Positions 9,016 to 46,069 of a DNA stretch of 64,000 bases are shown one piece after another (position 1 is the first letter of the stretch; each line of letters begins with the position of its first letter). The notes beneath the pieces were generated by a model. The model did no database searches, had not been told where the DNA came from, and saw only the letters and a list, made by a program, of their open reading frames with translations. A program made the translations under genes and the position numbers. Origin of the DNA: a virus; the IMG/VR virus record IMGVR_UViG_3300031456_000001, positions 1 through 64,000 of that record; one strand, written 5' to 3'.

Positions 9016-9207
9016 CTACTCGGCGCGATGCCGGCCGGGGGCCTGGCTGCCGGTGCGCAGGTCGTTGACCGCGGCCCGGTGCCCGCCCATGAGCGCGGCG
9101 TGCTTGGCGCCGTCCGGTTTGGAGCTGTCGCGCACGTTGCCGTTGCCACCCTGCGCCGAACCCCGACCATTGCCGCCGCTGCCGCCGTCGCTCTTCGATC
9201 CGAACAC
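9016..9207 (-). CDS. small Gly-rich hypothetical protein inside the RNA cluster
   Basis: AGGAGG RBS before GTG; coding-like codon usage. Confidence 0.5.
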   Translation of the reverse strand: MFGSKSDGGSGGNGRGSAQGGNGNVRDSSKPDGAKHAALMGGHRAAVNDLRTGSQAPGRHRAE

Positions 9208-9272
9208 GTCGATCCTCCTGTTGTGGTGGGCGGTGCCCGGCCAGCACCGCCTTGCGCGGCCGGGCCTGTGCG

Positions 9273-9347
9273 TAGCGGGAGCCAGATTCGAACTGGCGCA
9301 TGCATGGCTTATGAGGCCACCGACCTACCAGGCTGGTCTATCCCGCT
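9273..9347 (-). tRNA. tRNA-Met(CAT) (or Ile2)
   Basis: cloverleaf, acceptor AGCGGGA/TCCCGCT, anticodon loop CT-CAT-AA, T arm GCCAG-TTCGAAT-CTGGC. Confidence 0.8.
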
Positions 9348-12159: not shown

Positions 12160-12175
12160 ACGGTGCTGCTCCTTC

Positions 12176-12480
12176 GTGGTGGATGGGCCGAGCGTGGCTT
12201 GTCGAAGCGTGCCGGGCCGCGCGGGGTGGAACCGGGGGCGGGGTGGGGCGAACGGGGGATGGGTCGTCGCGGGGGACGGGGGATGGGTCGTCGCGGGGGT
12301 ACGTCGGGGAATGTCGGCGGGTGGGGTCCATGACGGGTCCAGGGGGGTCGTAACGGGGCGTCATGATCGGACAGGTTCGGGTGGAGGCGCACGGATCGTC
12401 GTTGCATCGAGGCTTGTCGACATGACGGGTAACGGCCTGGGAGCGTGGAGCAGCGTCGTGCGGGTCGACGGGTGGGCGTT
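12176..12480 (-). repeat. CGAC-(pentamer)n periodic tract A
   Basis: about 10 CGAC motifs separated by C-ending 5-mers on the - strand; exact duplication CGCGACGACCCATCCCCCGT. Confidence 0.8.
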
Positions 12481-12690: not shown

Positions 12691-13569
12691 ATGGCAGCAC
12701 CAGCCCAGACCGCGGTCAAGCCGGTCAGTCCGGCGCCGGTCGCCGCGCCGGCACCGGCGCCGACGCGTTCCGTCTTCGACGGCGCCCGCAACAAGATCTT
12801 CTGCCATCGGTTCGACGTCGAGCTGACCGTTGAGCAGCTCGTCGGCGGTACCCCCACGGACCGCAACGTCGCCGCCGGGTGGATCCGCACGAAGATGGGC
12901 CTCACCTCCGAGGACGCCATCTCGGCGCAGGTCGAGGAGGTCATGAAGGCCCGCGGAGTGACCGCCGACCAGGCGGTGGAGCAGGTGGCCCGCAACCGGA
13001 ACCTGTCCGGGTTCAAGCGGGACTTCACGACGCCGATCGCCCGGAACACGCAGCGCCTGGCGTCGACCCGCGGGGTGAAGGTGCTGCAGGCCGACGGCGA
13101 AACCTACGCGCACCGGGTGTTCGCGCCGGAGGAGGCGGAGGTCACGTTCGGCGAGCTGTACATCGAGGGTCGCCAGATCAAGGCGATGTTGAAGGAGAAC
13201 GCCATGATCGCGGTGGCGTCCGGCGGTATCGAGGGCAAGGGCTGGGGGGCGACGCGGAAGGGGATGCTCAACTTCCTGGTGGAGCACCTGTTCGTCGAGG
13301 AGAACGTGATCCTGCTCGGGGTCACTGACCCGGATTTCGTCAACCAGTCGTTCGTCCACACGTTCCGCGGTTCGGGGATCAAGCTGGAGGAGGTGGCCCG
13401 GGATGTGGTGTTGTCGTTCACGCTGGTCGCGGACTTCGACTTCACGGAGAAGGACAAGGACTTCTTCGAGCAGGTGATGGTGCGGGCCGAGTACAACGGT
13501 CTGGGCGCGAGCCGTTCGCAGGGGTTCGGGAAGTTCAAGACGACGCGGTTCGAGCAGCTGCCGGCGTAG
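12691..13569 (+). CDS. stand-alone Cas7/Csm3-like RAMP superfamily protein
   Basis: first strand RFDVELTVEQLVGG, LYIEGRQIKAMLKE resembling the RAMP IPGSSxKGxxR helix motif, C-terminal G-rich loop GLGASRSQGFGKF; good RBS and codon usage. Confidence 0.8.
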   Translation: MAAPAQTAVKPVSPAPVAAPAPAPTRSVFDGARNKIFCHRFDVELTVEQLVGGTPTDRNVAAGWIRTKMGLTSEDAISAQVEEVMKARGVTADQAVEQVARNRNLSGFKRDFTTPIARNTQRLASTRGVKVLQADGETYAHRVFAPEEAEVTFGELYIEGRQIKAMLKENAMIAVASGGIEGKGWGATRKGMLNFLVEHLFVEENVILLGVTDPDFVNQSFVHTFRGSGIKLEEVARDVVLSFTLVADFDFTEKDKDFFEQVMVRAEYNGLGASRSQGFGKFKTTRFEQLPA

Positions 13570-19282: not shown

Positions 19283-19960
19283 TCAGCCACCGATGCGGCT
19301 CAACGCCTCGTCCCAGACCTCGACCGGCCACGCGTTGACGGTGCCGAAGATCGTGGAGTGCGCCTTCTCGACCGGGACGCCGTCACGCCGGGCAATGGCT
19401 GCCGCCGTCTTCCCGAGGCGGTTCAGGTAGCCGACGTCGTGACGCAGGCCGCGCAGATTGGCGAACCCGGTGGCGGCCAGCCGCTCGTATCCGGCCTCCA
19501 GGCGTTCGGTACGCGCGCCCAACTCCAAGATGGCACGGTCATGCTGAACCAGGTGATCCCGCTGGATCCGCATCTGGTCGATCATGACCTGAAGAGCGTC
19601 GAGCGGGTCCATGGCCTTCGGGCTGACCACGTAGGCGCCGGTCTTGCGGATCGTGGGCAGCACCTCTCCGGTAACCCAGTCCTGGAACGCCTCCGCCTCT
19701 CCACGCTCGGAGCGCATCACGAGCCGGTAGAGCCCCTGCTCACTGATGATGGTGGAATCTTGCACGCCACCGGGGGTGCGCACTGGATGCGTACCCTTCT
19801 CCCGGTCACGAAGCATGCGCATTGCGTCAGGACCATTTCGGTAGCCAAGAATCTTGGCTACGTCGGCGGCCACGAACCACGGCTCCCCGTCGATCATGAC
19901 GACGCGGATGGAGTTGCCGTTGAAGTCGAACGGGTCGAGCGCTGTGCTTACACTGGTCAC
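19283..19960 (-). CDS. Bro-N domain antirepressor-like protein
   Basis: IRVVMIDGEPWFVAADVAKILGY...ISEQGLYRLVMRS...FQDWVTGEVLPTIRKTGAY. Confidence 0.92.
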   Translation of the reverse strand: MTSVSTALDPFDFNGNSIRVVMIDGEPWFVAADVAKILGYRNGPDAMRMLRDREKGTHPVRTPGGVQDSTIISEQGLYRLVMRSERGEAEAFQDWVTGEVLPTIRKTGAYVVSPKAMDPLDALQVMIDQMRIQRDHLVQHDRAILELGARTERLEAGYERLAATGFANLRGLRHDVGYLNRLGKTAAAIARRDGVPVEKAHSTIFGTVNAWPVEVWDEALSRIGG

Positions 19961-24425: not shown

Positions 24426-24775
24426 GTCGCGAAACTATCACGTCGCGAGGGTGGTTCGAACGCCCCCCGAACGTATGGCCCCCACCCGGCCCGCACACGT
24501 TCACCACTTCTAAAGAGTGGTGAAACGTGTGTGCGGGTGTGTGCCGGCGTGTGTGAGGTGCCGTGTGCGTATCTGACCTGGGGAAATGAAGATCGCGTGT
24601 GAGGGCGTGTGACCCCTCGTATGCGGATCATGGGGTCACACGCGTGTGCGGAGTGTAGGCAGACTACGCATGAGGCTGAGTTTTACCTGGTCAGCATGCA
24701 TGCTTGATCAACTAGCCGTTTCCACATGATGGGAAACGGTCATTTCGCTGTGATGCGTTATCCACAAGTGATCCA

Positions 24776-26122
24776 CTAGAACAGCGTCCCCCCGAGCCCG
24801 TCCTCCTGCCGGCCGCCGTGCGGCTGCGGCGGCTGCATGCCGAGCACCACCCGCCAACGCTTCAGGTTGTCGGCCCGGTCTGGCGCCATCTCCAACACAC
24901 CCTGCTTCATCCGCGTGTTGAGCTGATTACGGGCCGCATTCACGCTCAGGCCGACATACCGGGCATAGTCGCCTGCGGTGATCCCGCCCGCACCTGCCCC
25001 CTTGATCCAGGCGATCGGGTTGAGGTGGACGGAGGCGCCCATCGTGCCCTCCGTCTTGTCCACGGTCACCTCCTGCTCGGCGATGAACTCCCCCGGCGAC
25101 TTCACCTGACGCACGTGCACCAACGTCGAGCCCTCCTCGTCGACCCACATCGACACCACCGACCCGGCCCCGGCCGTCAACCAGCGCGAGCCGTACACGT
25201 CGTCGATGCCGTTGGTCCGCTGCTGCCCCTGCTGGATCTTCCGGTTGTGGTGATCCTCGACCCACTGCATGCCCCGGGCCACACACTCCTGCCTGGCCCG
25301 GTTGTAGCCGTTCGCCGACTCGTCGTCCGACGGCTTCGGGCAGTAGTCCTTCACGCTGTCCACGAACACGTCCGAACACTTGTGCGGCTGCGCCTGCGCC
25401 ATGTCCGCCAGGGCGTCCTTCTCCGTGGTCAGGTCGAACGGCAGCGGCCCGTCATGCACCAGCAGATGATCACGCAGCACGTCGGCCATCCAGTCCCGCC
25501 GGTGCCGGCGCATCGCCCGCCGGATCTGCCGCGGCCGGTCCCCGGCCAGGTACAGCACCAGCCCGGCCAGGTCCATGGGCCGCACCGGCATGCCCAGCAC
25601 CGCCCCCCAGTCGTCGGGGTGGTCGTCGGGGCCGACCCGCCGGTGGTCAGCGCGGGGCCGCCCGTCCGGCCCGAGGAGACCCAGCCGGGCGAACACCAGC
25701 AGATGCGACAGCGTCGACTTGAACACGCCGTTGCCGCCGAACAGCATCAGCGGCTCCCCGGGCGCCCACACCACACCGCCGCCGGGCGCCCCCCACACCT
25801 GCTCGTCGCCGTCGGCGTCTTCGGCGAGGAACTCCCACCCGTCGAGGAGGCGCAGTTTCCGGGCCGCCCGCAGCGCCGCGAACTCTTCGGCGTCGATCTC
25901 CTTGCGGACCCTGCGCCGGTTGCGTTCCGATTTGCGCTGCCGGGCCAGCTCGCGTTGCTCCTCCGCGTCGGCGAGCTGCCTCCGGCGCTCCTCCTCCTCC
26001 TCGGCGGTGAGGCCCGACTCGGTATCCGGCGGCGGGCCGTTCGACGGGTTGTCGGGCTGACCACCGGGGGGCGTGTCGCCTTCAGCGGCCGACCAGTCGA
26101 ACGGGGGGGCGTCGTCGGTCAC
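24776..26122 (-). CDS. RepA-like AAA helicase
   Basis: Walker A GGNGVFKST, VFVDS Walker B, HHNRK and YGS motifs; follows Prim-Pol. Confidence 0.82.
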   Translation of the reverse strand: MTDDAPPFDWSAAEGDTPPGGQPDNPSNGPPPDTESGLTAEEEEERRRQLADAEEQRELARQRKSERNRRRVRKEIDAEEFAALRAARKLRLLDGWEFLAEDADGDEQVWGAPGGGVVWAPGEPLMLFGGNGVFKSTLSHLLVFARLGLLGPDGRPRADHRRVGPDDHPDDWGAVLGMPVRPMDLAGLVLYLAGDRPRQIRRAMRRHRRDWMADVLRDHLLVHDGPLPFDLTTEKDALADMAQAQPHKCSDVFVDSVKDYCPKPSDDESANGYNRARQECVARGMQWVEDHHNRKIQQGQQRTNGIDDVYGSRWLTAGAGSVVSMWVDEEGSTLVHVRQVKSPGEFIAEQEVTVDKTEGTMGASVHLNPIAWIKGAGAGGITAGDYARYVGLSVNAARNQLNTRMKQGVLEMAPDRADNLKRWRVVLGMQPPQPHGGRQEDGLGGTLF

Positions 26123-26997
26123 ACGCCACCACCGAGGATCTTGCCGGTGGCCGATGCGATGGTCTTGCGGACCTCGGCGTCGCCGAGCCCGGACAGGATG
26201 GCCTCCGAGCGCAGGTCGCCGAGCCGGTCGGTGCCGTAGCCGGATTCGAGAATGCGGCACGCGGCCCAGTACAGCGACTCGTTGCGGTTGCCGGCGGTCT
26301 GCTGCGCGAACCAGCGGATGAGCGGTTCCGCATGGTCGGTGAAGGCCGTCTGTGTCAGGTCGCGCGGCGGCGGCGGCGGGTTCAGGAAGTCGCGCACGTC
26401 CAGCCAGGACAGCAGTCCGTCTTTAGCCAGGTCGAACCACGACCACCGGTAGAACAGCGGCCCAACCTGCGAGCAGGGCGCGGCCACATAGCCGCCGCAG
26501 GAACGGAAGTCGATGCCGTGTTTCTTCAGGCAGGCCGACTGCTGGCCGGTGCCGTCGTAGTAGAAGTGCCAGCCGCCGGACGGGGTGACGACCGCGGCGA
26601 ACGCCCCGGTGGTCAGCCCGACCTCACGGAGCCGCCCGAACGACACCTTGCCGGGGGCGCCGCCTTTGACGTCCACGTCGAGCACGTCCGGCGACGAGGT
26701 GCCCGGCCCGCCGGGGGAGCCGGTGGCGATGCCGATGTTGCACCGCGGGTCCCGCGCCCACCACCGGGCCACCCGTTCGACGTCGGCGGTGGCGTCTTTG
26801 AAGCCGTGGCCGAGCCGGCCGCAGACCTGACCACCGGGGCAGGCGGCCTGTTCGGCGTCGTCGGCGTGGGCACGGCGGAACCGGGGGACTTTGCCGCCGG
26901 GGACGAGGGGGAACACCCGCCAGCCGAGGACGGCGTATGCGGCGGCCGCCCCGGCGAGGGTCTCCGGCAGTTCGGTGGCGGTGCTGACGCTGCCCAT
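26119..26997 (-). CDS. bifunctional DNA primase/polymerase (Prim-Pol)
   Basis: GWRVFPL, HGFKDAT, NIGIATG, LDVD, TPSGGWHFYY, GGYVAAP, GNRN. Confidence 0.92.
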   Translation of the reverse strand: MGSVSTATELPETLAGAAAAYAVLGWRVFPLVPGGKVPRFRRAHADDAEQAACPGGQVCGRLGHGFKDATADVERVARWWARDPRCNIGIATGSPGGPGTSSPDVLDVDVKGGAPGKVSFGRLREVGLTTGAFAAVVTPSGGWHFYYDGTGQQSACLKKHGIDFRSCGGYVAAPCSQVGPLFYRWSWFDLAKDGLLSWLDVRDFLNPPPPPRDLTQTAFTDHAEPLIRWFAQQTAGNRNESLYWAACRILESGYGTDRLGDLRSEAILSGLGDAEVRKTIASATGKILGGGV

Positions 26998-27066
26998 CTA
27001 TGCTCTCCCTGCTGGCTACGAATGGGTGTTCGGGGGCTGCCGCCTGGATCGCGGTGGCCCCCACTG

Positions 27067-27294
27067 CTACCGGCGGTAGAACGCCCCGACCTCCACCCCG
27101 TACAGCCCGGCGAGCACGCCGAGGATCGACGAGGGTACATCGATGAGGCCGGTCTCGTATTTGCCGACGGTCACCCAGTGCCGGTCGATGTGGGCGGCGA
27201 CGTCGCGCAGGCTCATGCCGGCCCGGTCGCGCGCGGCGCGCAGGGCGTCACGGTCCAGGACGTGGACAGGGTGGAGTGCCGCCGGAGCGGTCAT
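27067..27294 (-). CDS. XRE-family HTH regulator
   Basis: LRAARDRAGMSLRDVA...TVGKYETG...LAGLYGV. Confidence 0.85.
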   Translation of the reverse strand: MTAPAALHPVHVLDRDALRAARDRAGMSLRDVAAHIDRHWVTVGKYETGLIDVPSSILGVLAGLYGVEVGAFYRR

Positions 27295-27528
27295 GGGGGT
27301 GCCTTTCGGTCATCTCGCCAGGGGGCGATCACGTCGAGGGATGCGAGCCTAACCGAACCCCGCCCGTAAGGCCAGGGGCTACAGGGCCGTGTCGCCGGGG
27401 CCCGGCTGCCGGTCTGGCCGCTGGCCAGGATCGGCCTGACCCGGCTACCATCGGTCGTAGATCGGGTTGGTCTCCGCCCCGTTGATCGGTGTGTGTGACC
27501 TGCTGGTTCCTTTCTTGTGGTGGGAGAG

Positions 27529-27575
27529 GGAGAACCCCCGCCGTTCCCTTACGAGGGGCGCGACGGGGGTTCTCC
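27529..27575. terminator. hairpin closing tract B
   Basis: GGAGAACCCCCG...CGGGGGTTCTCC. Confidence 0.55.
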
Positions 27576-28325
27576 GTGTCCGGGGCCGATGTGCCGCGGG
27601 TGGTGTCGGCAAGTCGATGTGCCGCGGGCGGCTGCTGACAGGGCATGTCGGGCCGGCGGGGACGGGGTAGCAACCAGGCAGGTCGGTTGAGACTGCAGCG
27701 GTCCGTCGGGTAAGGCCGGGGTGCCCGGGGGGAGGCTAGTCAGAGGGCGAGGAGCAGGCCGAGTACGGCGACGGCGGCGAGGATGACGACGACGGCGAAG
27801 TCGGCGTAGCCGGGCAGCGTCGCGGCGGCGGGTGTCGCAGCGGGCAGGGGCGGGAAGGGCGGGCATGTCGCGGGGGAAGGGGGTGGCGGGTCGGCGTTCA
27901 CCGCGGGTCGGGTCGACGTGTCGGCGGAACCGTGGTGGATAGGTGAGTCGGTCGGCATGTCGGCTCCTGGTTGGGACGTCCGGACGGGGGTGGTCGGTCG
28001 GGCCGGGGTGATGGGGTCGGATCGATGGCACGGTACGTCGGCGGGGTCGCGGGTCGGGGGTGTTCTTGCGGGGCCCGTCGTCGCGAGGTGGGCTCGGCAA
28101 GGCGTGTCGGATCGCAGAGAGTGGGTGCGGGTCGTCGGTGTGGGCTTGTGCGGGAAGGCGTGTCGGTGCGGGCCCGGGATGGCATGTCGACCGGTGTGTA
28201 TCGGCAAGGAATGTGACCGGAAAAGGCCGTCGGGGCATGTCGGGTGGATGTGTGGCGCCGGAAAGGTCGGGGGGCGGGGCGGGCCGGGAAGTCGAGCCGG
28301 GTACGGGGTGGGAAGGCTGGTCGGC
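27576..28325 (-). repeat. CGAC-(pentamer)n periodic tract B (largest)
   Basis: more than 20 CGAC-led units, e.g. CGAC CAGCC TTCCC ACCCC GTACC CGGCT; CGAC ATGCC ATCCC GGGCC CGCAC; CGAC ACGCC TTGCC GAGCC. Confidence 0.85.
27740..27958 (-). CDS. small membrane protein embedded in tract B
   Basis: AGGAG RBS, C-terminal helix FAVVVILAAVAVLGLLLAL. Confidence 0.5.
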   Translation of the reverse strand: MPTDSPIHHGSADTSTRPAVNADPPPPSPATCPPFPPLPAATPAAATLPGYADFAVVVILAAVAVLGLLLAL

Positions 28326-28329
28326 ACGT

Positions 28330-28674
28330 TCAGGCCGGCGGTGCGGGTTTCCAGTCGGGGTGGTGGTGGGTGCTGTAGCAGCCGACGGCGTGCAGCCAGG
28401 ACCGGCACCGCGCGCACCACACCATCGGCGCCGCCACGGTGGCGATCTCCTGCACCGGCCGGGTGCCGTCGCGCCGCGGGTCGGGGGCGAACTGGGCCGG
28501 GTCGGGTATCCGCTGGTCGGGCATGCGGTGGTCGCGGCCGCCGCAGCCGGCACAGTCGGCGTCGGTGGCCGTCGAGGCGTCCGGGGTGGTGTCGCGTTCT
28601 GCGGTGAACGCGAGCCGCCCGACGAGCCGGGCCAGGTCGAGCCGCGGGAACGGCATGGGCAACGGGGACCGCAT
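28330..28674 (-). CDS. hypothetical protein with Cys pairs
   Basis: CAGC, CARC, HAVGC. Confidence 0.5.
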   Translation of the reverse strand: MRSPLPMPFPRLDLARLVGRLAFTAERDTTPDASTATDADCAGCGGRDHRMPDQRIPDPAQFAPDPRRDGTRPVQEIATVAAPMVWCARCRSWLHAVGCYSTHHHPDWKPAPPA

Positions 28675-28675
28675 T

Positions 28676-28912
28676 TCAGTCCTCTCTGGTGAACTGCTTG
28701 AACTCCAGCTCGTCGACCTGGTCGATGTCGAGGCTGAACCGGACCGGGTACTTGTTGAGGTGTGTGGTGTAGCCGGAGCACTGGATGCAGAGGTCGGTGC
28801 CCGGCTCGTATTCGCCGTCGGCGAGCAGCGCGCGGGCCTCCTCCTCCGTGTCGGCGTGGATCTCGACGGATATCGATCCGGTGATCGGTAGGTCCAACTT
28901 CCAGACGGTCAT
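28676..28912 (-). CDS. hypothetical protein
   Basis: AAGGAG RBS downstream of the promoter motif at 28956-28973. Confidence 0.65.
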   Translation of the reverse strand: MTVWKLDLPITGSISVEIHADTEEEARALLADGEYEPGTDLCIQCSGYTTHLNKYPVRFSLDIDQVDELEFKQFTRED

Positions 28913-28974
28913 CGCTTCCGCTCCTTCGCGTGGTGGAAACCCCACAGTAGCAAAGTGTCATGCGGTGTGTCAAT

Positions 28975-29487
28975 TCAGGGCTGGTGGACGGGCATCCAGG
29001 CGAACCAGCCGGCCATGATGCCGAAGGCGAGGACGGCGGCGGCGAGCACGAACCCGGCCAGCCCGAACAGGCAGAGGATGCCGAGGTAGGCGCGGATCGC
29101 CTCCAGGACGTCCATGTGCCGCTGGTGGGCGTGCCGGCGGCGGGCTTCGGCGTCCGCGGCCCGCTGCCGGGCGGCGGCGACCTCGGCGAGGGACGGTCCG
29201 GCGGTGGGCCGCCAGCCGAACAGTCCGCCGGGGCCGATCCGGCGGATCCGGTTGGTGGCCGCGGAGTCGGCGACCGCCTCGACCGCGGCGGTGGCCGGGC
29301 CGTATCTGCCGGGGGGCTGGACGCGCGGCGCGGGCGCGGTGCGTACCGGCTCCGGCGGCATCGGGGCGTTGCGCAGCGCGGGGCTGACGAGGACGGTGGG
29401 TGCGGCCAGGTCGCCGAGGCCGTCGAGGGCGAGCCGGGTGCGGCCGGCGCCGCGCACCCGGCGGTGTGTCTCGGTCTGATGGTTCAT
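28975..29487 (-). CDS. membrane protein
   Basis: C-terminal hydrophobic helix; RBS follows tract C. Confidence 0.55.
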   Translation of the reverse strand: MNHQTETHRRVRGAGRTRLALDGLGDLAAPTVLVSPALRNAPMPPEPVRTAPAPRVQPPGRYGPATAAVEAVADSAATNRIRRIGPGGLFGWRPTAGPSLAEVAAARQRAADAEARRRHAHQRHMDVLEAIRAYLGILCLFGLAGFVLAAAVLAFGIMAGWFAWMPVHQP

Positions 29488-29499
29488 GTCGGTGGTCTC

Positions 29500-29636
29500 C
29501 CGGGGCGGTGGTGGCTGCTGGGGCACGGGATCGGTTCGGCGATGCATAGTCGGCAGGGCTGTAGGCAGGGGTAGGCGTGTCGGCAGGGCGGGCGTGTGTG
29601 GGTGGGTGTGTCGGGACGGGACGGGTGCTAGTCGGT
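29500..29636 (-). repeat. CGAC-(pentamer)n periodic tract C
   Basis: CGAC ACACC CACCC ACACA CGCCC GCCCT GC; CGAC ACGCC TACCC CTGCC... Confidence 0.75.
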
Positions 29637-30518
29637 CGGCGTGTCCCCATGCTCGCCGAGTAGGTCGATGAATGTCGAGGGGCCGGTGCCGAGCAGCGCC
29701 GGCCACGTGCCGGTCGCCCGGCGGCACCGGTCGAGGAGTGTGCCGACCGCGACGGCGGTGTCGAGCGGTGGCGGCTCGTCGCCGATGACCGTGTCGACCC
29801 CGGCGAGCGCGCCGAGGCCGGGCAGCCGGTGGGCGTTGAGGACCGCAATCCAGATGCTGACACCGCCGTCGCCGGAACCGTCCCGTGGGCCGCCGTTGGC
29901 CTGCACCTGCGCACCGGCATCGACGAGCAGCCGCTCCAGAGCCTCCTCCGGGCCGGGTGCGGTGGTGGTGACGTCGAGGACGACCCAGATGTCGAGCCGG
30001 CCGATGTACGCCGCCCACGGGGCGAGCCCGACGGTGTGCATGGCGTCCTGGGCGGTCTGCCCGTCGCCCGCCTCGATGAGGACCCGGCCGCCCATGCGGA
30101 GCACGCTGTCGCGGGCGGCGGCGGCGAGGTCGCCGATCTCGACAGGCGCCGGGATGATCAACCCAGCGCCGTAGTCCCCGCGGTGCTGGACGGTGACCCG
30201 GTGGCCGAGCCGGTTGAGCCGGCCGAGGTCGTCGGTCAGCCACCGCGGCTCGCCGGTGTAGGCGATGCCGAGGTTGGTGTCCGGGTGCTGCCACGCCGAC
30301 GGCAGCACCGACAGCGCTACGGAGTCGGCCGGCGACCCGTACGGGTTGGGGCTGGCGTGCGCGACGTCGGACCCGTCGCTGACCACGGTGCGGATGGCGA
30401 GCCCGTCGCGCAGGCCGCGGCCGAGGCGCGCGGCGACCGGGCCGACGTCGACCCCGGGCGGACCGGTGACGACGGTGACGGTGCCGGTGGCGCTGTTGCG
30501 GTTGCGATAGGTGCTCAT
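29628..30518 (-). CDS. hypothetical protein
   Basis: long ORF with coding-like codon usage. Confidence 0.6.
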   Translation of the reverse strand: MSTYRNRNSATGTVTVVTGPPGVDVGPVAARLGRGLRDGLAIRTVVSDGSDVAHASPNPYGSPADSVALSVLPSAWQHPDTNLGIAYTGEPRWLTDDLGRLNRLGHRVTVQHRGDYGAGLIIPAPVEIGDLAAAARDSVLRMGGRVLIEAGDGQTAQDAMHTVGLAPWAAYIGRLDIWVVLDVTTTAPGPEEALERLLVDAGAQVQANGGPRDGSGDGGVSIWIAVLNAHRLPGLGALAGVDTVIGDEPPPLDTAVAVGTLLDRCRRATGTWPALLGTGPSTFIDLLGEHGDTPTD

Positions 30519-31873: not shown

Positions 31874-32482
31874 CTACCAGGGCAGGCCGCGGTGCTTGGC
31901 GCAGGTCTCGCCGTAGCCGGCGGCCCGTGAGCGGGCGTTGGTCAGCGGGTGCGGGCCGAACGCGCAGATCCCCAACGTCCGGCCGAACAGCCCGGCGGCG
32001 GCGGCCACGTCCTCCAGGATGTGACTGGCGGCGAAGACCTGGTGCCGGGCGTGCAGCTTCTGCTGGCTGAGGCCGGTGCCGTTGGAGATGAGCTGGTACA
32101 GCCGGCGCGTGCCGTTGCGGAACTCGACGACCTCGAAGAAGGTGATGTCGTTCCCGGCGGCGGTCGGCGTGGTGCGCGGCAGGGCGTACCGGCCGGCGGG
32201 CAGCTTCGCGGCCATCCGGTTCGCCTCGGCGTACAGCTCGCCCAGGTTCGGCGTGGCGTACGTGATCGGCGTCTGCGGCTTCGGCTGCGCGTGCTGCGCC
32301 ACGAACGTCTGCGCCCGCTCCCGGGCCGCCTGGCGCTGCGGGGTGCGGGCCGGGGTGCCGGTGCTGCCGCCGGTGATCTGGCGTAGCACCTGGCCCTGCT
32401 CGCGGGCGACCTCGGCCAGGGGGCGCAGGCCGTTGCGCTCACGCCAGGTGCTCAGCGATCCGAGGGTGGCGGACTGGGTCAT
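31874..32482 (-). CDS. DUF6011-like protein
   Basis: C-terminal C...LTNARSRAAGYGETCA; downstream of the promoter motif at 32545-32562. Confidence 0.7.
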   Translation of the reverse strand: MTQSATLGSLSTWRERNGLRPLAEVAREQGQVLRQITGGSTGTPARTPQRQAARERAQTFVAQHAQPKPQTPITYATPNLGELYAEANRMAAKLPAGRYALPRTTPTAAGNDITFFEVVEFRNGTRRLYQLISNGTGLSQQKLHARHQVFAASHILEDVAAAAGLFGRTLGICAFGPHPLTNARSRAAGYGETCAKHRGLPW

Positions 32483-40373: not shown

Positions 40374-40575
40374 CGACCATCCATCCCCTCCCACATCGGA
40401 CCGGACCACACCGACGACCCATCCCGAGACCGGACCTCCCCCGCAGCCGACCGTTACGACGATCCTGGATAGCCCGATCCCAGCCCATCCGACAAACCCC
40501 GTCGACCCGCCTGCGGCACGGTGCACATCGACTTACCAATCCTTCCGCCGCCCGCATCGACTTACCACGGACAGG
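40372..40575 (+). repeat. CGAC-(pentamer)n periodic tract D
   Basis: CGAC CATCC ATCCC CTCCC ACATC GGACC GGACC ACAC; CATCGACTTACCA present twice. Confidence 0.8.
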
Positions 40576-40584
40576 AGTTCCACC

Positions 40585-40938
40585 ATGAGCGGACCGAAGC
40601 CGGTCAAGCTGCTCGCCAAACTGCCGAAAGAGTCCAGGCTCAACGGCCTGGAGTCGGTACACGACCAGCTGGCCAGGTTCGGCACGGCGACGATCGTCAT
40701 GACCGTGTCGACGAAGCTGGTCGAGCGGCACGCGGGCGACGTCCTGCAGCCGGTCATGCAGATCGAGCACGTCGAGGGCCTGCCGGCCGGCGCGCTCGCC
40801 AAGGCGGGCGAGCAGCTGATGACGCAGGCCCGCATCGCCCGCCTCGGCGGCGAGGAGGAGGCCCTGCCGCCGGAAGTCGTCGACTTCGGCCAGCCGGATG
40901 ACGACAACGACGATCCTGAGCCATACCAGGTTGATTGA
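40585..40938 (+). CDS. hypothetical protein
   Basis: AGGAG RBS after tract D. Confidence 0.65.
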   Translation: MSGPKPVKLLAKLPKESRLNGLESVHDQLARFGTATIVMTVSTKLVERHAGDVLQPVMQIEHVEGLPAGALAKAGEQLMTQARIARLGGEEEALPPEVVDFGQPDDDNDDPEPYQVD

Positions 40939-40968
40939 CACGCTGCGTGACATCTGATGTGATGTCCG

Positions 40969-41130
40969 CCGACGGACCGGACCGTAACGGCAGCGCCCCC
41001 TACCCGACGACCCCGCACGCAACCGTCCCACCTGGACCAGAACGACGCACCATAACGCGCCATTCCCGGCCTCAAACGACGAACCAAGCCTGAACCTGCA
41101 TCACCTGCACCACCTGCACCACCTGCACGG
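40969..41130 (+). repeat. CGAC-(pentamer)n periodic tract E
   Basis: CGAC GGACC GGACC GTAAC...; CGAC GCACC ATAAC GCGCC ATTCC CGGCC; starts just after promoter TTGACA-N17-TGTGAT. Confidence 0.8.
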
Positions 41131-41159
41131 ACTGTAGAGCGAGTGAAGAGGAGCAGCAC

Positions 41160-42091: not shown

Positions 42092-43270
42092 ATGACGACC
42101 GAGCTGACCACGGGGGCGCTCGTCGGGCAGGTGCGCGCCTCCGAATCCCCGGCCCGGCCGCTCAAGATCTTCATGTGGGCGGCGAGCATGGTCGACGGGA
42201 CCTGGATATACCGCCTCGACATGCCGGCTCGGGAGCTGCGCCGGCTCGGCCACGAGGTGCAGATCTCCAGCACGATGAGCGCCTGGGCCCGCGACGAGGC
42301 CGACATCATCGTCGGGCAGCGGGTCTTCCAGGACCTGCCGTCGCGGATGTGGCAGCTGCTCTGCGAGGAGCGGCGGGCGTCCGGCCGTGGCGGCATGGTG
42401 TTCGAACTGGACGACGACCTGATCAACATCGACCCGAAGACCAACCCGCTCGCCCTGCGGTTCCGGCACCCACGGGTCCAGGAAAACCTGAAGATCAACC
42501 TGCGTGCCGCCAACGGGGTCACCGTCTCCACGGAGCCGCTGGCCGCGGTGGTCAGGAAGGTGCGCCGCGGCGATCCGGCGGAGGTGCACGTCGTGCCCAA
42601 CGCGGTGCGCGCCGAGACGTTCGCCGTCACGAAGACCGCGGACCGCACCTACCTGACCATGTACGGCTGGCAGGGTTCCAGCACGCACGGTGCGGACTGG
42701 CGGGTGGCCCGTGACGCGGTGGCGTTGGTGCTCGCCGAGGATGCGATCCGGCTGCGGTTCCTCGGCACCGCCCACCTGGAGGGCCTGCCCCTGACCGCTG
42801 TGCAGCGGGGCCGGAGCCGGGTCGACGCCAAGCCGTGGACCACCGACATCGACGAGCACTACCGGCGGGTAGCCGAGTTCGACGTCAGCCTGGCCCCGCT
42901 GGCCAACACGCCGTTCAACCGGAGCAAGAGCGCCCTGCGAGCGCAGGAGAGCCTTGCTCTCGGTGTGCCGGTCGTCGCCTCCGACGTGCCCTCCTACCGC
43001 GGCTGGGTCACCGACGGCGTCACCGGCTTCATCGTGCCCGCCTCGACCGGTAAGTGGGTGCGGGCGATGCGGGCGCTGCAGGACCCGGCGTTGCGCGCCG
43101 AGATGGGCGCTGCGGGCCGGGAGGCCGCGAAAGCCTGGTCGATCGAAGTTCTCGTCCATCGCTGGCTCGACGTCTACTACTCGCTGCTGCCCGACTTGTC
43201 AGCCCGGCTCAACACGCAACAGACCGACGCGCCTGACCATCCTGTATCCGGGCCGACGGCCCATGCCTGA
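42092..43270 (+). CDS. GT-B (family 4-like) glycosyltransferase
   Basis: YR...P, ELDDD, STEPL, VVPN, LAPLANTPFNRSKS, GVPVVASD. Confidence 0.88.
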   Translation: MTTELTTGALVGQVRASESPARPLKIFMWAASMVDGTWIYRLDMPARELRRLGHEVQISSTMSAWARDEADIIVGQRVFQDLPSRMWQLLCEERRASGRGGMVFELDDDLINIDPKTNPLALRFRHPRVQENLKINLRAANGVTVSTEPLAAVVRKVRRGDPAEVHVVPNAVRAETFAVTKTADRTYLTMYGWQGSSTHGADWRVARDAVALVLAEDAIRLRFLGTAHLEGLPLTAVQRGRSRVDAKPWTTDIDEHYRRVAEFDVSLAPLANTPFNRSKSALRAQESLALGVPVVASDVPSYRGWVTDGVTGFIVPASTGKWVRAMRALQDPALRAEMGAAGREAAKAWSIEVLVHRWLDVYYSLLPDLSARLNTQQTDAPDHPVSGPTAHA

Positions 43271-43455
43271 ACGAATATCGCCACAGCTGTCCCGACCGCC
43301 CCCCGTACGACGGCCCACCGCTGGCCGCCGCCACGCCCTCCCCGACCTCTGGCCGACCTTCCTGCACGCGACCATCCCACTCGGCTTGCCGACTGACCCG
43401 CCCGTGGCTGAGCTGTCCGACAGGCCAGTCCCCCACCATCCACCCCCCACCCCGA
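43191..43455 (+). repeat. CGAC-(pentamer)n periodic tract F
   Basis: CGAC TTGTC AGCCC GGCTC AACAC GCAAC; CGAC GGCCC ATGCC TGAAC; about 10 CGAC motifs, ending at GAGGAG RBS. Confidence 0.78.
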
Positions 43456-43463
43456 GGAGTCCG

Positions 43464-44195
43464 ATGATCGACATTCCGCGCCTGGCGGTGGTCAGCACGC
43501 ACAACCGCCCGGCCGAGCTGGCCCGGCTGCTCACCGCGATCACACCGCAGTGCCACAAGGTGTTCGTGGTCGACAACGCCAGTGACCCGCCGGTGGTGTT
43601 CCCGTCGGGCCGGCTGTACGGCCCGGGGATGCCGGACCCGGAGGTGCCGGGCACCTGTCTGATCACGCGGGTCGAGGTGATCCGGGACGAGGAGCAGCCG
43701 CCGAACCTGAGCAGGCTGTGGAACGTCGGTATCGACGCGGCCCGCGACTACGTGCGCGGCGGCGACTACATCGGCCACGACGTGGCGATCCTCAACGACG
43801 ACGCGGTGCCGCCGCCGGGCTGGTGGGATGCCGTGTCCGGGGCGATGCGCGGCGCCGGCGCGATGGCCGGGTCGTCCAGCCCGTTCGACACCGCACCGGG
43901 CGTGGTTCAGCACTGGGGCTCGGGGATACCGATGTCGGTGGCGACCCGGCTGACCGGTTGGGCGATGCTGCTGCGCGGCGAGTGGGAGGGCGCCCGGTTC
44001 GACGAGCGGCTGCGGTGGTGGTACGGCGAGGATGACCTTTCGTTCCGCGCCCGGCTGGCGGGGGGCATCGTGCACGTCGGCGGATTCCCGGTGCCGAACA
44101 CCGGCGCGAACACCAGCACCGTCGGCGTGCTGGCCGAGCAGGCCGGGCGGGACCGGGCGATGTTCGTGCACATCCACGGACGGCAGCCGTGGTGA
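43464..44195 (+). CDS. family 2 glycosyltransferase
   Basis: VVSTHNR, VVDNAS, WNVG, LNDD, FDE...WWYGEDD. Confidence 0.85.
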   Translation: MIDIPRLAVVSTHNRPAELARLLTAITPQCHKVFVVDNASDPPVVFPSGRLYGPGMPDPEVPGTCLITRVEVIRDEEQPPNLSRLWNVGIDAARDYVRGGDYIGHDVAILNDDAVPPPGWWDAVSGAMRGAGAMAGSSSPFDTAPGVVQHWGSGIPMSVATRLTGWAMLLRGEWEGARFDERLRWWYGEDDLSFRARLAGGIVHVGGFPVPNTGANTSTVGVLAEQAGRDRAMFVHIHGRQPW

Positions 44196-44521
44196 CCGAG
44201 GTGCCGGATCCGGCGGCGCGTAACGTGTTCAGGCTGCTAGCGCTGGACACCGCGGAACGGGGCACCGTCCGCAGCTACCTGACGGAGCTGCTGTGCGCGC
44301 TCTGGCTCTACGAGGCCGACGCCAAGTACGGCGTGACCGGCGAGTCCGACTGGCGGTACGACATCTACGAGCCGATGCAGCGGGCCGGGCTCATCCCGGC
44401 ATGGCGCGACGGTTACGGGGTCGGCTATCGGATCGACGACAGTCGACATCCCGAGGATCGGCAGCACGCCGATGCGCTGATCTGCGCGGCGATCCGGCAC
44501 ATGACAGGAGAACCCCGGTGA
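44189..44521 (+). CDS. hypothetical protein
   Basis: TVRSYLTELL..LW...GESDWRYDIY. Confidence 0.6.
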   Translation: MVTEVPDPAARNVFRLLALDTAERGTVRSYLTELLCALWLYEADAKYGVTGESDWRYDIYEPMQRAGLIPAWRDGYGVGYRIDDSRHPEDRQHADALICAAIRHMTGEPR

Positions 44522-45213
44522 ACTACGGTGCACGGCACGATTTTCTGCGCAGCCTGCACGAGCTGCTGCGCCCGGCCACCTACCTGGAGATCGGCGTGCA
44601 GACCGGCCGGTCCCTGGCCCTGGCCATTCCGCCGACCAAGGCAATTGCCGTCGATCCGGAGCCGCAGATCTCGGTGCCGATCACGGTGCCGTACGCGCTG
44701 TACCCGATGACCTCCGACAAATATTTCCACGTTGATGAGATCACCGGCATCACTCCATCCGCCCACGGCCCGATCGACCTGGCGTTCATCGACGGCATGC
44801 ACCTGTTCGAATACGCCCTGCGCGACTTCATGGGCGTCGAGCGGCACGCCCGGCCCGACGGGCGCACCGTGGCCGTGTTCGACGACGTGCTGCCCTACTC
44901 CCCGGACATCGCCGGGCGCACCCCGCTGCCCGGCGACTGGGCCGGCGACGTGTGGAAGATCGTCAACGCGTTGCAGAGCACCCGCGCCGACCTGCGGTTC
45001 ATCCTGGTCGACGTCGACCCGACCGGCGTGCTCGTGGTGTTGAACCTCGACCCGGCCAGTACCACACTGTCCGCCGTGTACGAGCACCTGCACGCCATCT
45101 ACGCCAACGACCAGGAGCAGCTCCCGGCGCACCAGCTGAACCGCGACTACGCAGCACAGCCCGATCGGGCCCTCGACCTCATCCGCCAGCACCTGAACAT
45201 CACGGAGGCATAG
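44518..45213 (+). CDS. class I SAM-dependent methyltransferase
   Basis: YLEIGVQTG, IDLAFIDGMH, VFDD, WAGDVWK. Confidence 0.88.
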   Translation: MNYGARHDFLRSLHELLRPATYLEIGVQTGRSLALAIPPTKAIAVDPEPQISVPITVPYALYPMTSDKYFHVDEITGITPSAHGPIDLAFIDGMHLFEYALRDFMGVERHARPDGRTVAVFDDVLPYSPDIAGRTPLPGDWAGDVWKIVNALQSTRADLRFILVDVDPTGVLVVLNLDPASTTLSAVYEHLHAIYANDQEQLPAHQLNRDYAAQPDRALDLIRQHLNITEA

Positions 45214-45217
45214 AAGC

Positions 45218-46069
45218 ATGCGCATTCTCGTAACCGGTGGTGGTGGCTTTCTCGGTGCCGCCACCGTGCAGGCGGGGGAGGCGATCGGCCACGAGATGTC
45301 GATCTTCGACCGCTCGACGGGGCTCGACATCACCAACCGGAAACTGATCTTCGACGCGTTCGAGGACATCGGGCCGCACCGCGTCATCCACCTGGCCGGC
45401 GTGCTCGGCACGGCCGAGCTGTTCGACGACCCACACATCGCGGTCGACGTCAACATCCACGGCACGCTCAACGTGTTGGAGGCGTGCACCGCATTCGGCG
45501 CGAGCTACACCGCGATCACCATGCCACCCGTGTTCAACTCCGTCTACACGGCAACCAAGGTGTGTGCCGACCGGCTCGCCACGGCCTGGCACGAGTCGAT
45601 GGGCCTGCACACGTCGAAAGTCGTCGCCTACAACGCCTACGGCGCCGGCCAGAAGCACGGCCCCGGCCACCCGCAGAAGATCATCCCGACCTTCGCGACG
45701 GAGGCGTGGGCCGGACGGCCGATCCCCGTGTGGGGCGACGGTGAGCAGACCGTCGACCTGGTGCACGCCGACGACCTCGGCCGGATGCTGGTCGCGGCCA
45801 CCGGGTTCAGCAACGACGAGGTCTTCGACGGCGGCGCCGGCTACGCGCTGACCGTCAACCAGGTCGCCGACTTCGTCAACGAGGTCACCGGCAACACCGC
45901 GGGCATCGAGTATCTGTCGATGCGCCGCGGTGAGAAGCCGACCCGCATCGTCGCCAAAGGTCGCGGCTGGGACCTGCTCGGCTGGCGGCCGACGATGGAA
46001 TGGGACCGGCTGTCCGCGGCGATCGAGGCGTACCGCCCGGCTGACCACGCAGGGGCGGGCGTCTCGTGA
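45218..46069 (+). CDS. NAD-dependent epimerase/dehydratase
   Basis: GGGGFLG, HLAG, YTATK (YxxxK), NAYG, WGDGEQ. Confidence 0.9.
   Translation: MRILVTGGGGFLGAATVQAGEAIGHEMSIFDRSTGLDITNRKLIFDAFEDIGPHRVIHLAGVLGTAELFDDPHIAVDVNIHGTLNVLEACTAFGASYTAITMPPVFNSVYTATKVCADRLATAWHESMGLHTSKVVAYNAYGAGQKHGPGHPQKIIPTFATEAWAGRPIPVWGDGEQTVDLVHADDLGRMLVAATGFSNDEVFDGGAGYALTVNQVADFVNEVTGNTAGIEYLSMRRGEKPTRIVAKGRGWDLLGWRPTMEWDRLSAAIEAYRPADHAGAGVS

What the first reader, a model, noticed from the sequence alone, without database searches (positions are those of the whole stretch)
27529..28325. Largest array (about 750 bp, over 20 CGAC-led units) ending in a strong hairpin
Seen on the - strand: many units of 24-29 nt, such as CGAC CAGCC TTCCC ACCCC GTACC CGGCT, CGAC TTCCC GGCCC GCCCC GCCCC C, CGAC ACGCC TTCCC GCACA AGCCC ACAC and CGAC GACCC GCACC CACTC TCTGC GATC. 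The array is closed by GGAGAACCCCCG/CGGGGGTTCTCC. Unit length resembles 4 nt plus 4-5 pentamers, i.e. guide-sized. Inference: the main guide repertoire of the RAMP system.
Basis: partly seen in the sequence, partly recalled or inferred. Interest (0 to 1): 0.75.

Follow-up and report, generated by a model that had tools for sequence, protein, structure and literature searches.

The report
Phage VIPR-type guide-RNA repeat array
This C-rich stretch of an 85-kb high-GC phage is very probably a five-base-periodic guide-RNA array of the phage's own VIPR system, a CRISPR-like gene silencer first described in 2026, so it is real and well spotted but of a kind already known.

Summary
27529-28325 has the highest CGAC density in the genome (34 sites against 20.4±3.0 in shuffles). 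Aligning on CGAC shows a five-base CC periodicity that 0 of 1000 shuffles reach. The closing hairpin is real. "Over 20 units of 24-29 nt" is overstated: 9 of 33 gaps fall in that range, and 21 units are 15 nt or longer.

On the opposite strand the units read (GGNNN)n-GTCG. This matches the NNNGG variant of VIPR guide RNAs (bioRxiv 10.64898/2026.04.26.720920). The window is part of an 85-kb phage that encodes a RAMP-like protein at 12691-13569. Around homologues of that protein, GG...GG...GTCG is 9.5 times denser within 1.5 kb of the gene than elsewhere across all 56 viral loci. Two long guides in relatives spell conserved codons of rival vipr-like genes under the published one-base-skip rule (2 of 125 real, 0 of 2500 permuted).

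Best reading (0.68): a remote VIPR guide array. Units here are short and rather degenerate, no targets could be called, and the transcribed strand is unresolved.

This scan found VIPR arrays before on other DNA. Novelty: new member of a known kind.

The parts
27609..28327 (+). Main array. It holds 33 of the 34 GTCG sites, delimiting units that read (GGNNN)n-GTCG on the + strand, which is CGAC-(NNNCC)n on the - strand. The terminal GGCATGTCG occurs 5 times.
   Evidence: In the four pentamers before GTCG, G stands at 62-80% at pentamer position 1 and 62-76% at position 2. Runs of 3 or more occur in 6 of 21 units, against 0.37 in shuffles.
27529..27575 (.). Strong hairpin at the low-coordinate end of the array: a 12-bp outer stem with an inner stem and no U tract. 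It is probably a U-less terminator or boundary for the - strand operon. Its role for a + strand RNA is unknown.
   Evidence: -41.1 kcal/mol, z -3.8 on the - strand; -45 kcal/mol, z -3.6 on the + strand. The consensus terminator scan found none.
27740..27958 (-). Possible 72-codon ORF inside the array region. It has an AGGAG 7 nt before the ATG, a proline-rich N-terminus and a hydrophobic C-terminus. Its status is unresolved.
   Evidence: GC3 0.86. A relative in a soil metagenome shows a 27-nt insertion and a 9-nt deletion here. No family match.
28944..28973 (-). Copy of the phage's conserved promoter cassette (TTGACA-N7-TGACA-N6-TAnnnT). It would transcribe two small genes and then the C-rich strand of the array.
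   Evidence: The cassette was first noted in earlier finding e1-6117185.
28330..28674 (-). Neighbouring 114-aa CxxC protein gene. It ends just before the array and so sets the array's upper limit.
   Evidence: three homologues at 56-77% identity end at the same place.
12691..13569 (+). Vipr-like RAMP protein gene (292 aa), the presumed protein partner, 14 kb from the array.
12160..12480 (+). Smaller tract of the same motif next to the vipr-like gene (tract A). CC at +8/+9 after CGAC is strong, but longer phasing is weak.
29527..29640 (+). Small tract of the same motif between two - strand genes.
40374..40590 (-). Tract of the same motif with the G-rich strand on -. It lies among + strand genes.
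40960..41150 (-). Tract of the same motif. The promoter cassette at 40935 (+) fires straight into its C-rich strand.
43271..43410 (-). Tract of the same motif between two + strand genes.

Best explanation
The tract is a VIPR-type repeat array, that is, a set of candidate vrRNA guides belonging to the VIPR system of this 85-kb high-GC phage. The system's protein is the RAMP-like Vipr homologue encoded at 12691-13569.

On the G-rich + strand each unit is a run of GGNNN pentamers closed by GTCG, and the G of GTCG also starts the next unit. By analogy with the characterised systems, one Vipr protomer binds each pentamer. It holds the GG and presents two variable bases (positions 4-5). These read double-stranded target DNA two bases at a time, skipping every third base, and silence transcription of rival phages or satellites.

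Shown here:
- the motif and its phasing;
- its strong link to the protein family in other phages;
- that long guides of that family follow the one-base-skip code.

Inferred:
- that this particular array is expressed, processed at GTCG and loaded;
- which strand is the RNA;
- that guides of 4-5 pentamers are functional.
For: 1. Motif. There is period-5 CC/GG phasing anchored on CGAC/GTCG, and 0 of 1000 shuffles reach it in the main tract or in five other tracts. On the G strand the phase runs upstream of GTCG, as in relatives. G at -5/-4 and -10/-9 is 76/74% and 71/74% here, and 81/72% and 82/70% in 185 sites of eight related loci.

2. Link to the protein. The ORF has 584 homologues. Across all 56 IMG/VR loci that carry one, GG...GG...GTCG occurs at 2.94 per kb within 1.5 kb of the gene and 0.31 per kb elsewhere. 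Of 49 loci with at least 1 kb upstream, 36 have 3 or more hits upstream (34 on the opposite strand, 2 on the same strand) and 13 have fewer.

3. RAMP nature.
- PF03787 matches at 15.9 bits, E 7e-4, below the 22.1-bit cut-off.
- The G-loop GLGASRSQGFG aligns with the Csm4 and Cas6 G-loops.
- The ESM Atlas model aligns to a Cmr6 RAMP cluster at TM 0.49/0.50 over 187 residues.
- BLASTP gives E 8e-12 to the 220-aa protein of L066. That gene is flanked on its own strand by canonical GGY/NN arrays of 12-16 repeats with a tail.

4. Code. 125 units of 7 or more pentamers were tested against 67 vipr-like genes under 12 rules. Apart from trivial self-matches at skip 3, perfect matches occur only with positions 4-5 and a one-base skip: 2 of 125 real against 0 of 2500 permuted.
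- One guide spells K/N-V-A-E-G-W-L in frame in 14 genes, while its own gene has 2 mismatches.
- The other spells the G-loop codons on the antisense strand in 21 genes.
- Differences among the targets fall at the wobble (skip) base.
- The literature reports the same logic, including vipr-targeting guides.

5. Array-like evolution. A roughly 90%-identical relative in a soil metagenome has a unit-sized 27-nt insertion containing GTCG, a 137-to-88-nt replacement and a 1-nt indel inside the tract.

6. The published methods accept 4 or more repeats, NNNGG repeats and staggered arrays whose units overlap by 1 nt.
Against: - Units are short and degenerate. Only 3 of 21 units have 4 or more uninterrupted GG pentamers and the longest run is 5. 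40% of pentamers are GG-led, against 49-67% in eight relatives and 25% in shuffles.
- The third base is not a pyrimidine.
- There is no structured 3' tail per unit.
- The tract lies 14 kb from the vipr-like gene, and no accessory (vap) gene was recognised.
- No promoter was found for the G-rich strand. The only evident promoters transcribe the C-rich strand.
- 11 of 12 skewed tracts in this genome are C-rich on the local sense strand. In L016, L017, L020, L032 and L033 the array lies between same-strand genes with its C-rich strand as sense. In L017 it runs from the upstream gene's stop to the vipr ribosome-binding site.
- Target calls were impossible for this tract, because it offers only 8-10 informative bases per unit.
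- The skip-rule support rests on two guides from other phages, one of which also matches its own gene.
- Against 2.2 Mb of loci the same test gave only noise.
- No significant sequence match to any RAMP family, and no structure model could be made.
Confidence: 0.68

Rival explanations
1. It is the same Vipr-linked array family, but the functional RNA is the C-rich sense strand. It would be cut from the operon transcript as CGAC-led (NNNCC)n units. This is a mirror form of the code, with CC in place of GG.
For: - The C-rich strand is the one with evident promoters: the cassette at 28973 (-) upstream of this tract, and the cassette at 40935 (+) firing directly into tract 40960-41150.
- The hairpin follows the array on this strand.
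- 11 of 12 skewed tracts are C-rich on the local sense strand.
- In 34 of the 36 loci with 3 or more hits upstream, the C-rich strand is co-directional with the vipr-like gene.
- In L017 the array fills the space from the upstream stop codon to the vipr ribosome-binding site, which leaves no room for a divergent promoter.
- Target matching cannot tell the strands apart, because targets are double-stranded.
Against: - All characterised vrRNAs are G-rich, and the protein reads the two guanines base-specifically.
- With the informative bases at G-strand positions 4-5, the G strand reproduces the published order GG-x-NN. The C strand would need the reversed order CC-NN-x.
- L066, a homologous locus, has G-rich arrays on the gene's own strand.
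Confidence: 0.15
2. The tract is an eroded or repurposed array. It would be a worn remnant of guides, or a Vipr-binding sponge or leader that regulates neighbouring genes, and would not be a working guide set.
For: - GG-led pentamers are 40% here against 49-67% in relatives.
- The tract next to the vipr-like gene, and those of the closest relatives L012 and L013, are no better than shuffles (0.22-0.25).
- Units of 4-5 pentamers give only 8-10 informative bases.
- An earlier follow-up in this scan reached a similar 'eroded' verdict on another genome (e1-5929099).
Against: - Phasing is far above shuffles.
- Short units of 20-35 nt also make up the 1.8-kb array of L033 and that of L028, which have 67% and 54% GG-led pentamers.
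- The vipr-like gene is intact and keeps all invariant residues of its family.
- Unit gain in a close relative suggests a live array.
Confidence: 0.1
3. The tract is unrelated to Vipr. It would be a C-rich, G-poor untranslated leader that serves as a Rho-loading (rut) site or as an unstructured spacer, or as a replication origin with iterons ahead of the HTH, primase-polymerase and helicase genes.
For: - C is 50% and G 23% over 820 nt on the transcribed strand, followed by a hairpin.
- The tract sits directly upstream of the replication genes.
- Each such tract ends at a ribosome-binding site.
Against: - Neither idea predicts a five-base phase tied to CGAC.
- Neither predicts the 9.5-fold enrichment of the motif beside vipr-like genes in other phages.
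- Four loci with a related primase-polymerase show no comparable tract, apart from one 400-nt stretch of L009 with 16 CGAC that I did not follow up.
- The cumulative GC skew gives no clear origin signal here.
Confidence: 0.05
4. The tract codes for protein. It would be a proline- and threonine-rich extension of the 72-codon membrane ORF, since the frame 27740-28420 on the - strand is open.
For: - Two frames are open across the tract.
- The net length change in the relative between 27857 and 28263 is a multiple of three.
Against: - The three codon phases have nearly equal GC (0.62-0.78) in 27980-28300, where real genes of this phage have GC3 above 0.9.
- Open frames are expected on a strand poor in G and T.
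- CGAC falls in all three frames, and unit lengths are not multiples of three.
- A five-base period is incompatible with codons.
- There is no ribosome-binding site at the only upstream in-frame GTG.
Confidence: 0.02

Closest known systems
VIPR systems (Viral Interference Programmable Repeat): Vipr RAMP protein plus vrRNAs. Sources: bioRxiv 10.64898/2026.04.26.720920 (Results, Discussion and three Methods sections read), 10.64898/2026.04.26.720927 (two Results sections read) and 10.64898/2026.10.15.759431 (outline and one section read).
   Same: - It is phage-encoded, with a small stand-alone RAMP-like protein and no other cas genes.
- Intergenic tracts of tandem pentamers carry two conserved G and variable bases.
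- The NNNGG repeat form and arrays whose units abut with a 1-nt overlap are both mentioned in that paper.
- In relatives of this phage the guides read targets with a one-base skip at the wobble position, and they hit rival vipr genes, as reported for SUSP1-family phages.
   Different: - Characterised (type II) guides have 9-16 GGY/NN repeats and a structured 3' tail. Here runs are at most 5, the third base is not a pyrimidine, and the only end mark is GTCG.
- The tract is 14 kb from the vipr-like gene and is one of at least six dispersed tracts.
- The G-rich strand is antisense to the surrounding genes.
- No vap gene was recognised.
- I could not see the figures or supplements that describe types I and III-VII, so some of these differences may already be documented.
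Non-canonical VIPR arrays found with a genomic language model (bioRxiv 10.64898/2026.10.21.760802; passages read).
   Same: These are period-5 arrays next to Vipr-like folds with repeat motifs other than GGY/NN.
   Different: The motifs listed there (GAC/NN, CAC/NN, WGT/NN, TGH/NN) repeat about 10 times. A GTCG-punctuated GGNNN form is not named in the passages I saw.
CRISPR arrays with class 1 Cas7 backbones
   Same: In both, a RAMP protein oligomerises on a guide RNA and breaks base pairing periodically. Arrays change by gain and loss of units.
   Different: There are no long direct repeats alternating with spacers, no cas1, cas2 or effector genes were seen, and the period is five rather than six. 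Targeting information is spread through the repeat instead of lying between repeats.
TRAP binding sites in Bacillus trp leaders (recalled, not looked up)
   Same: An RNA element made of short conserved words repeated about every five bases and read by an oligomeric protein.
   Different: The protein fold and the word (GAG/UAG) are different, and it acts in attenuation rather than guiding. It was considered before the VIPR lead and then dropped.

Membership tests
VIPR system (broad sense) | A Vipr protein, meaning a minimal RAMP with RRM core, glycine-rich loop and thumb, is encoded by the same element. | tested here: inconclusive
   - The ORF at 12691-13569 matches PF03787 at 15.9 bits, below the 22.1-bit cut-off. 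By hmmscan it scores 14.9 bits, and 3 of 40 family members match with a best E of 0.0022.
- The G-loop aligns with Csm4 and Cas6 at E 0.014-0.2.
- The ESM Atlas model has TM 0.49/0.50 to a Cmr6 RAMP cluster.
- BLASTP gives E 8e-12 to the L066 protein, which is flanked by canonical arrays.
VIPR system (broad sense) | Tandem pentamer repeats with conserved G positions alternating with variable bases. | tested here: met
   In the four pentamers before GTCG, position 1 is G in 62-80% and position 2 in 62-76%, while positions 3-5 are mixed. Phasing beats 1000 of 1000 shuffles. This is the NNNGG form that the paper lists as an alternative, not GGY/NN.
VIPR system (broad sense) | The arrays co-occur with the vipr gene across genomes. 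| tested here: met
   The motif stands at 2.94 per kb within 1.5 kb of the gene and 0.31 per kb elsewhere across all 56 loci. 36 of 49 loci with enough upstream sequence have 3 or more hits upstream. In this genome a small tract adjoins the gene, but the tract under study lies 14 kb away.
VIPR system (broad sense) | Guides read DNA by the one-base-skip code, with natural targets. | tested here: inconclusive
   The feature is met for the protein family. 2 of 125 long guides give perfect, in-frame, wobble-skipping matches to 14 and 21 of 67 vipr-like genes, against 0 of 2500 permuted guides. It is not testable for this tract, whose units carry only 8-10 informative bases. Joining neighbouring units gave nothing.
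VIPR system (broad sense) | The tracts are expressed as small RNAs that bind Vipr. | not testable with these tools
   No RNA run holds the stretch. The only holders are three DNA metagenome runs kept as contigs.
VIPR type II (SUSP1 / P. fulva) | 9-16 GGY/NN repeats per vrRNA. | tested here: not met
   The longest uninterrupted run is 5, and 3 of 21 units have 4 or more. The third base is C or T in only 44-65% of cases.
VIPR type II (SUSP1 / P. fulva) | Each vrRNA has a conserved, structured 3' tail (pseudoknot). | tested here: not met
   Units end in GTCG and run straight into the next unit. There is a single hairpin for the whole tract, at its low-coordinate end. Rfam matches nothing here.
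CRISPR-Cas | A repeat-spacer array together with cas genes. | tested here: not met
   Tandem Repeats Finder finds no array. The only RAMP signal in the genome is the sub-threshold one at 13132-13539. Pfam and PHROGs scans of 40 ORFs of the window found no Cas family.

The most novel reading that the evidence does not exclude
In this actinomycete-phage clade the VIPR arrays are built into operons so that their C-rich strand is the sense strand. In 34 of the 36 loci with 3 or more upstream hits the array points that way relative to the gene. In L017 it fills the gap from the upstream stop codon to the vipr ribosome-binding site, and in this phage a consensus promoter fires straight into a C-rich tract.

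Two readings follow. Either the guides are CGAC-led C-rich RNAs that use a mirror-image CC code, or G-rich guides arise only by obligatory antisense transcription and mature from a sense/antisense duplex. Either way, guide production would differ from every characterised VIPR system. The roughly 720-nt tract studied here, with its short GTCG-delimited units beside the replication genes, would be the largest example in this phage.
Probability: 0.2. Interest if true: 0.75.

Novelty: new member of a known kind. Interest (0 to 1): 0.45.

Why it matters
VIPR systems were reported only in 2026. They have been characterised in enterobacterial and Pseudomonas phages and, by small-RNA sequencing, in two further types.

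This tract and its 56 related viral loci show the same kind of system in high-GC phages and prophages of actinomycetes (Streptomyces, Nocardiopsis, Actinomadura and others). These have many dispersed arrays per genome and short GTCG-delimited units.

In relatives the code works out by computation alone, including guides aimed at rival vipr genes. This gives an independent check of the one-base-skip rule in a distant clade.

The open points are which strand is the guide, how units are cut at GTCG, and whether guides of 4-5 pentamers work. A single strand-specific small-RNA experiment could settle them, and the answers bear on the minimal guide length of these tools.

Tried and rejected
- **CRISPR-like tandem array.** Tandem Repeats Finder found nothing in the tract.
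- **Known RNA families.** Rfam at gathering threshold gave only tRNAs at 8-9.3 kb.
- **Consensus promoter and terminator scan of 26900-29100.** None on either strand.
- **Phage DNA databases.** No blastn or megablast match for the tract or for 20 kb around it.
- **Relatives through the primase-polymerase.** Four loci at 32-44% identity showed no comparable tract, apart from one 400-nt stretch of L009 with 16 CGAC that I did not follow up.
- **Relatives through the 114-aa neighbour.** Three homologues were found on short contigs, but nothing in viral or metagenome contigs.
- **Closest vipr relatives.** The records of L012-L014 hold no primase-polymerase homologue, so the tract's counterpart could not be read there.
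- **Global Fourier analysis of CC at period 5.** Not significant, because the phase resets at each CGAC. Genome-wide counts of the register-shifted patterns also differ little. The signal shows only inside the tracts.
- **High CGAC density at 74.5-75.2 kb.** This is Asp-rich coding sequence, not an array.
- **Ideas held before the VIPR lead and then dropped or down-weighted.** Replication-origin iterons, a clt-like transfer site, primase recognition sites, a G-quadruplex on the opposite strand, a TRAP-like site and a rut site.
- **Skip-rule search of 121 long guides against 2.2 Mb of loci.** Real and permuted guides gave the same distribution.
- **The same search with 210 guides of 6 or more pentamers against vipr-like genes.** No enrichment at 10% mismatch or less.
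- **Joining adjacent short units with gaps of 0-6.** Nothing in 27 pairs, none of them from this phage.
- **Sequencing runs.** No RNA holder is listed. The three holders are DNA contig runs: one may be the source, one carries the same phage at low depth, and one carries a relative at about 90% identity.
- **Cultured phages.** Only Microcystis phage Mae-JY09 carries a homologue, at 28% identity.
- **Limits of what I could read.** Supplementary files and figures of the VIPR papers were not available, so the type to which this clade belongs, and whether its array form is already drawn there, remain unknown to me.
Full report
**What the window is.** The window is the first 64 kb of an 85,079-bp virus record with 127-bp direct terminal repeats, rated complete, at about 70% G+C. 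Genes run on the - strand up to about 35.4 kb and on the + strand from 35.5 to 51 kb. Homologues of one of its proteins lie in Streptomyces, Nocardiopsis, Streptosporangium, Actinomadura and Streptacidiphilus genomes. The host is therefore probably an actinomycete.

**The observation.** On the - strand, 27529-28325 holds 34 CGAC. Dinucleotide-preserving shuffles give 20.4±3.0, with a maximum of 30 in 500. It is the densest such stretch of the window. It is also the most skewed stretch of the genome, with C 50% and G 23% over 820 nt.

Nine of 33 CGAC-to-CGAC gaps are 24-29 nt, against 1.6±1.2 in shuffles. The regular spacing holds mainly in 28056-28323.

The tract passes it. C stands at 74/76% at +8/+9 and 74/71% at +13/+14, then 62/53% and 56/62%, with 24-44% in between. 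None of 1000 shuffles that keep the CGAC sites reaches the observed amplitude. CGAC and the words overlapping it are the four best phasing anchors among 35 tetramers. The 1028 CGAC sites in coding sequence show only period 3.

The hairpin is real. Tandem Repeats Finder sees nothing, because the units share a frame rather than a sequence. 'Over 20 units of 24-29 nt' is too generous. 21 units are 15 nt or longer, and 9, 6 and 3 of them have uninterrupted runs of at least 2, 3 and 4 well-formed pentamers.

**Surroundings.**
- A 114-aa CxxC protein gene ends at 28330. Three homologues end at the same place.
- A copy of the phage's conserved promoter cassette sits at 28973 on the - strand.
- Below the tract come the hairpin, an HTH gene (27067-27294), a primase-polymerase gene (26119-26997) and a helicase gene (24776-26122).
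- The frame plot shows no coding signal in 27980-28300.
- A 72-codon ORF (27740-27958) with a good ribosome-binding site and a hydrophobic tail may be real.

The same motif fills five smaller intergenic tracts in the window, and there is one more skewed tract beyond it. 11 of 12 skewed tracts are C-rich on the local sense strand.

**The turn.** I first weighed origin iterons, Rho-loading sites, unstructured leaders and a TRAP-like site. A look-up of earlier notes of this scan pointed to VIPR systems, described in 2026 preprints, which I then read. According to those papers:
- A small phage-encoded RAMP protein (Vipr) polymerises on vrRNAs made of 9-16 pentamers, GGY plus two variable bases, followed by a tail.
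- The variable pairs read double-stranded DNA with every third base skipped.
- The usual result is silencing of rival phages or satellites.
- The methods accept four or more repeats. They list NNNGG, YNNNG and NNNNG variants, and arrays whose units overlap by 1 nt.

Read on the + strand, the present units are (GGNNN)n-GTCG.

**Testing that reading.**

1. *The protein.* The lone + strand gene at 12691-13569 gives only sub-threshold RAMP signals. These are PF03787 at 15.9 bits against a cut-off of 22.1, and G-loop alignments to Csm4 and Cas6. The ESM Atlas model of this exact protein aligns to a Cmr6 RAMP cluster at TM 0.49/0.50. The gene has 584 homologues, none named. It is related (BLASTP E 8e-12) to the 220-aa protein of locus L066. 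That gene is flanked on its own strand by textbook GGY/NN arrays of 12-16 repeats with a tail.

2. *Association.* Across all 56 viral loci carrying a homologue, GG...GG...GTCG is 9.5 times denser within 1.5 kb of the gene than elsewhere. 36 of 49 loci with enough upstream sequence have three or more copies just upstream, and 13 do not.

3. *Architecture.* In eight related arrays (185 GTCG sites), G stands at 78-82% every five bases upstream of GTCG out to -30. The present tract shows the same phase at 71-76% for two pentamers and weaker beyond. Unit lengths are 42-54 nt in some relatives and 20-35 nt in others (L033, L028), as here.

4. *The code.* For 125 units of seven or more pentamers I built targets from positions 3-4, 4-5 or 3-5 with 0-3 skipped bases. 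I searched these against the 67 vipr-like genes. Trivial self-matches at skip 3 aside, perfect matches arose only for positions 4-5 with one skipped base: 2 of 125 real against 0 of 2500 permuted.
   - The L025 guide spells K/N-V-A-E-G-W-L in frame in 14 genes, while its own gene differs at two informative bases.
   - The L060 guide spells the G-loop codons on the antisense strand in 21 genes, its own included.
   - The targets differ from one another at the skipped wobble base.
   - This is the behaviour published for VIPR, including guides aimed at rival vipr genes.

5. *Array dynamics.* Contigs of a roughly 90%-identical phage in a soil metagenome carry a 27-nt insertion containing GTCG, a 137-to-88-nt replacement and a 1-nt indel within the tract.

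**What remains weak.**
- This tract itself yields no callable target, because units carry 8-10 informative bases. Joining neighbours did not help.
- Its pentamers are less clean than in relatives: 40% are GG-led, or about 50% without the two non-array stretches, against 49-67%.
- The tract beside the vipr-like gene, and those of the closest relatives, are no better than shuffles by the strict measure.
- Against 2.2 Mb of loci the code test is pure noise.
- The evidence for the code is two guides from other phages.
- No structure could be predicted, and flanks of close homologues could not be fetched.

**The strand problem.** Two things favour the G-rich + strand as the RNA: the literature, and the geometry in which the informative bases directly precede the next GG.

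Against that, every promoter I can see transcribes the C-rich strand, and the hairpin follows the array on that strand. In 34 of the 36 loci with three or more upstream hits, the C-rich strand is the sense strand of the vipr-like gene. In five loci I checked, the array lies between same-strand genes. In L017 it runs from the upstream stop codon to the vipr ribosome-binding site.

I therefore keep a 0.15 rival in which the C-rich RNA is the guide. I cannot exclude obligatory antisense transcription. From memory, not looked up: mycobacterial RNase E prefers to cut before a cytidine. That would make the lone C of GUCG a natural processing site in a C-poor RNA.

**Verdict.**
The motif, the five-base phase and the hairpin hold. 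The count of regular units does not.
The tract is indeed the largest pentamer array tied to the phage's RAMP protein. That system is the already described VIPR kind, the strand is probably the other one, and function as guides is inferred.
- Novelty: new member of a known kind. This scan had already met VIPR arrays on other DNA.
- Interest is moderate. The clade is distant from the characterised systems. The dispersed, short-unit, operon-embedded arrays raise a concrete question about how guides are made, and it can be tested.

Noticed in passing
L025:9890-9940 (- strand) and L060:10710-10750 (- strand): Two guides in related phages spell conserved codons of vipr-like genes under the one-base-skip rule. 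The L025 guide matches K/N-V-A-E-G-W-L in 14 of 67 genes but not its own. The L060 guide matches the G-loop codons on the antisense strand in 21 of 67 genes, its own included. This points to vipr-against-vipr conflict in actinomycete phages.
   Followed up: partly
window 373, 9954, 28973, 31289, 32562, 35491, 51937, 52424, 55041 (-); 35535, 40935 (+); more beyond the window: A conserved promoter cassette, TTGACA-N7-TGACA-N6-TAnnnT, recurs across the genome, often with nearly identical spacer sequence. It was already noted by another first-stage reader.
   Followed up: partly
window 8047-9347 (-) and 5503-7161 (-): There is a cluster of six tRNA-like genes. Three have abnormal anticodon loops by ARAGORN, and only three pass Rfam's tRNA model. 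The cluster lies next to a 552-aa protein matching PHROG 850, 'RNA-binding protein'. A Ro/Y-RNA-like pairing comes to mind from memory, but I did not test it.
   Followed up: no
window 42092-47812 (+): Glycosyltransferase and nucleotide-sugar epimerase genes lie in the phage's + strand arm.
   Followed up: no
window 28676-28945 (-): The small ORF directly behind the 28973 promoter has a sub-threshold match to the Icd-like host cell division inhibitor domain: NF033153, 18 bits against a cut-off of 25.
   Followed up: no
window 24480-24780 (- strand): This is a C-rich stretch of a different kind, with no CGAC but repeated CACAC/ACACGC words. It lies between the helicase gene and the next gene.
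   Followed up: no
window 19283-19960, 31874-32482, 9928-10440 (-): Phage-typical domains among the many unassigned ORFs of the - strand arm: Bro-N, DUF6011 and a prokaryotic JAB domain.
   Followed up: no
L033:7550-9400 (- strand): A related phage carries a 1.8-kb array with 83 GTCG sites and 67% GG-led pentamers. It is the largest array seen here.
   Followed up: partly
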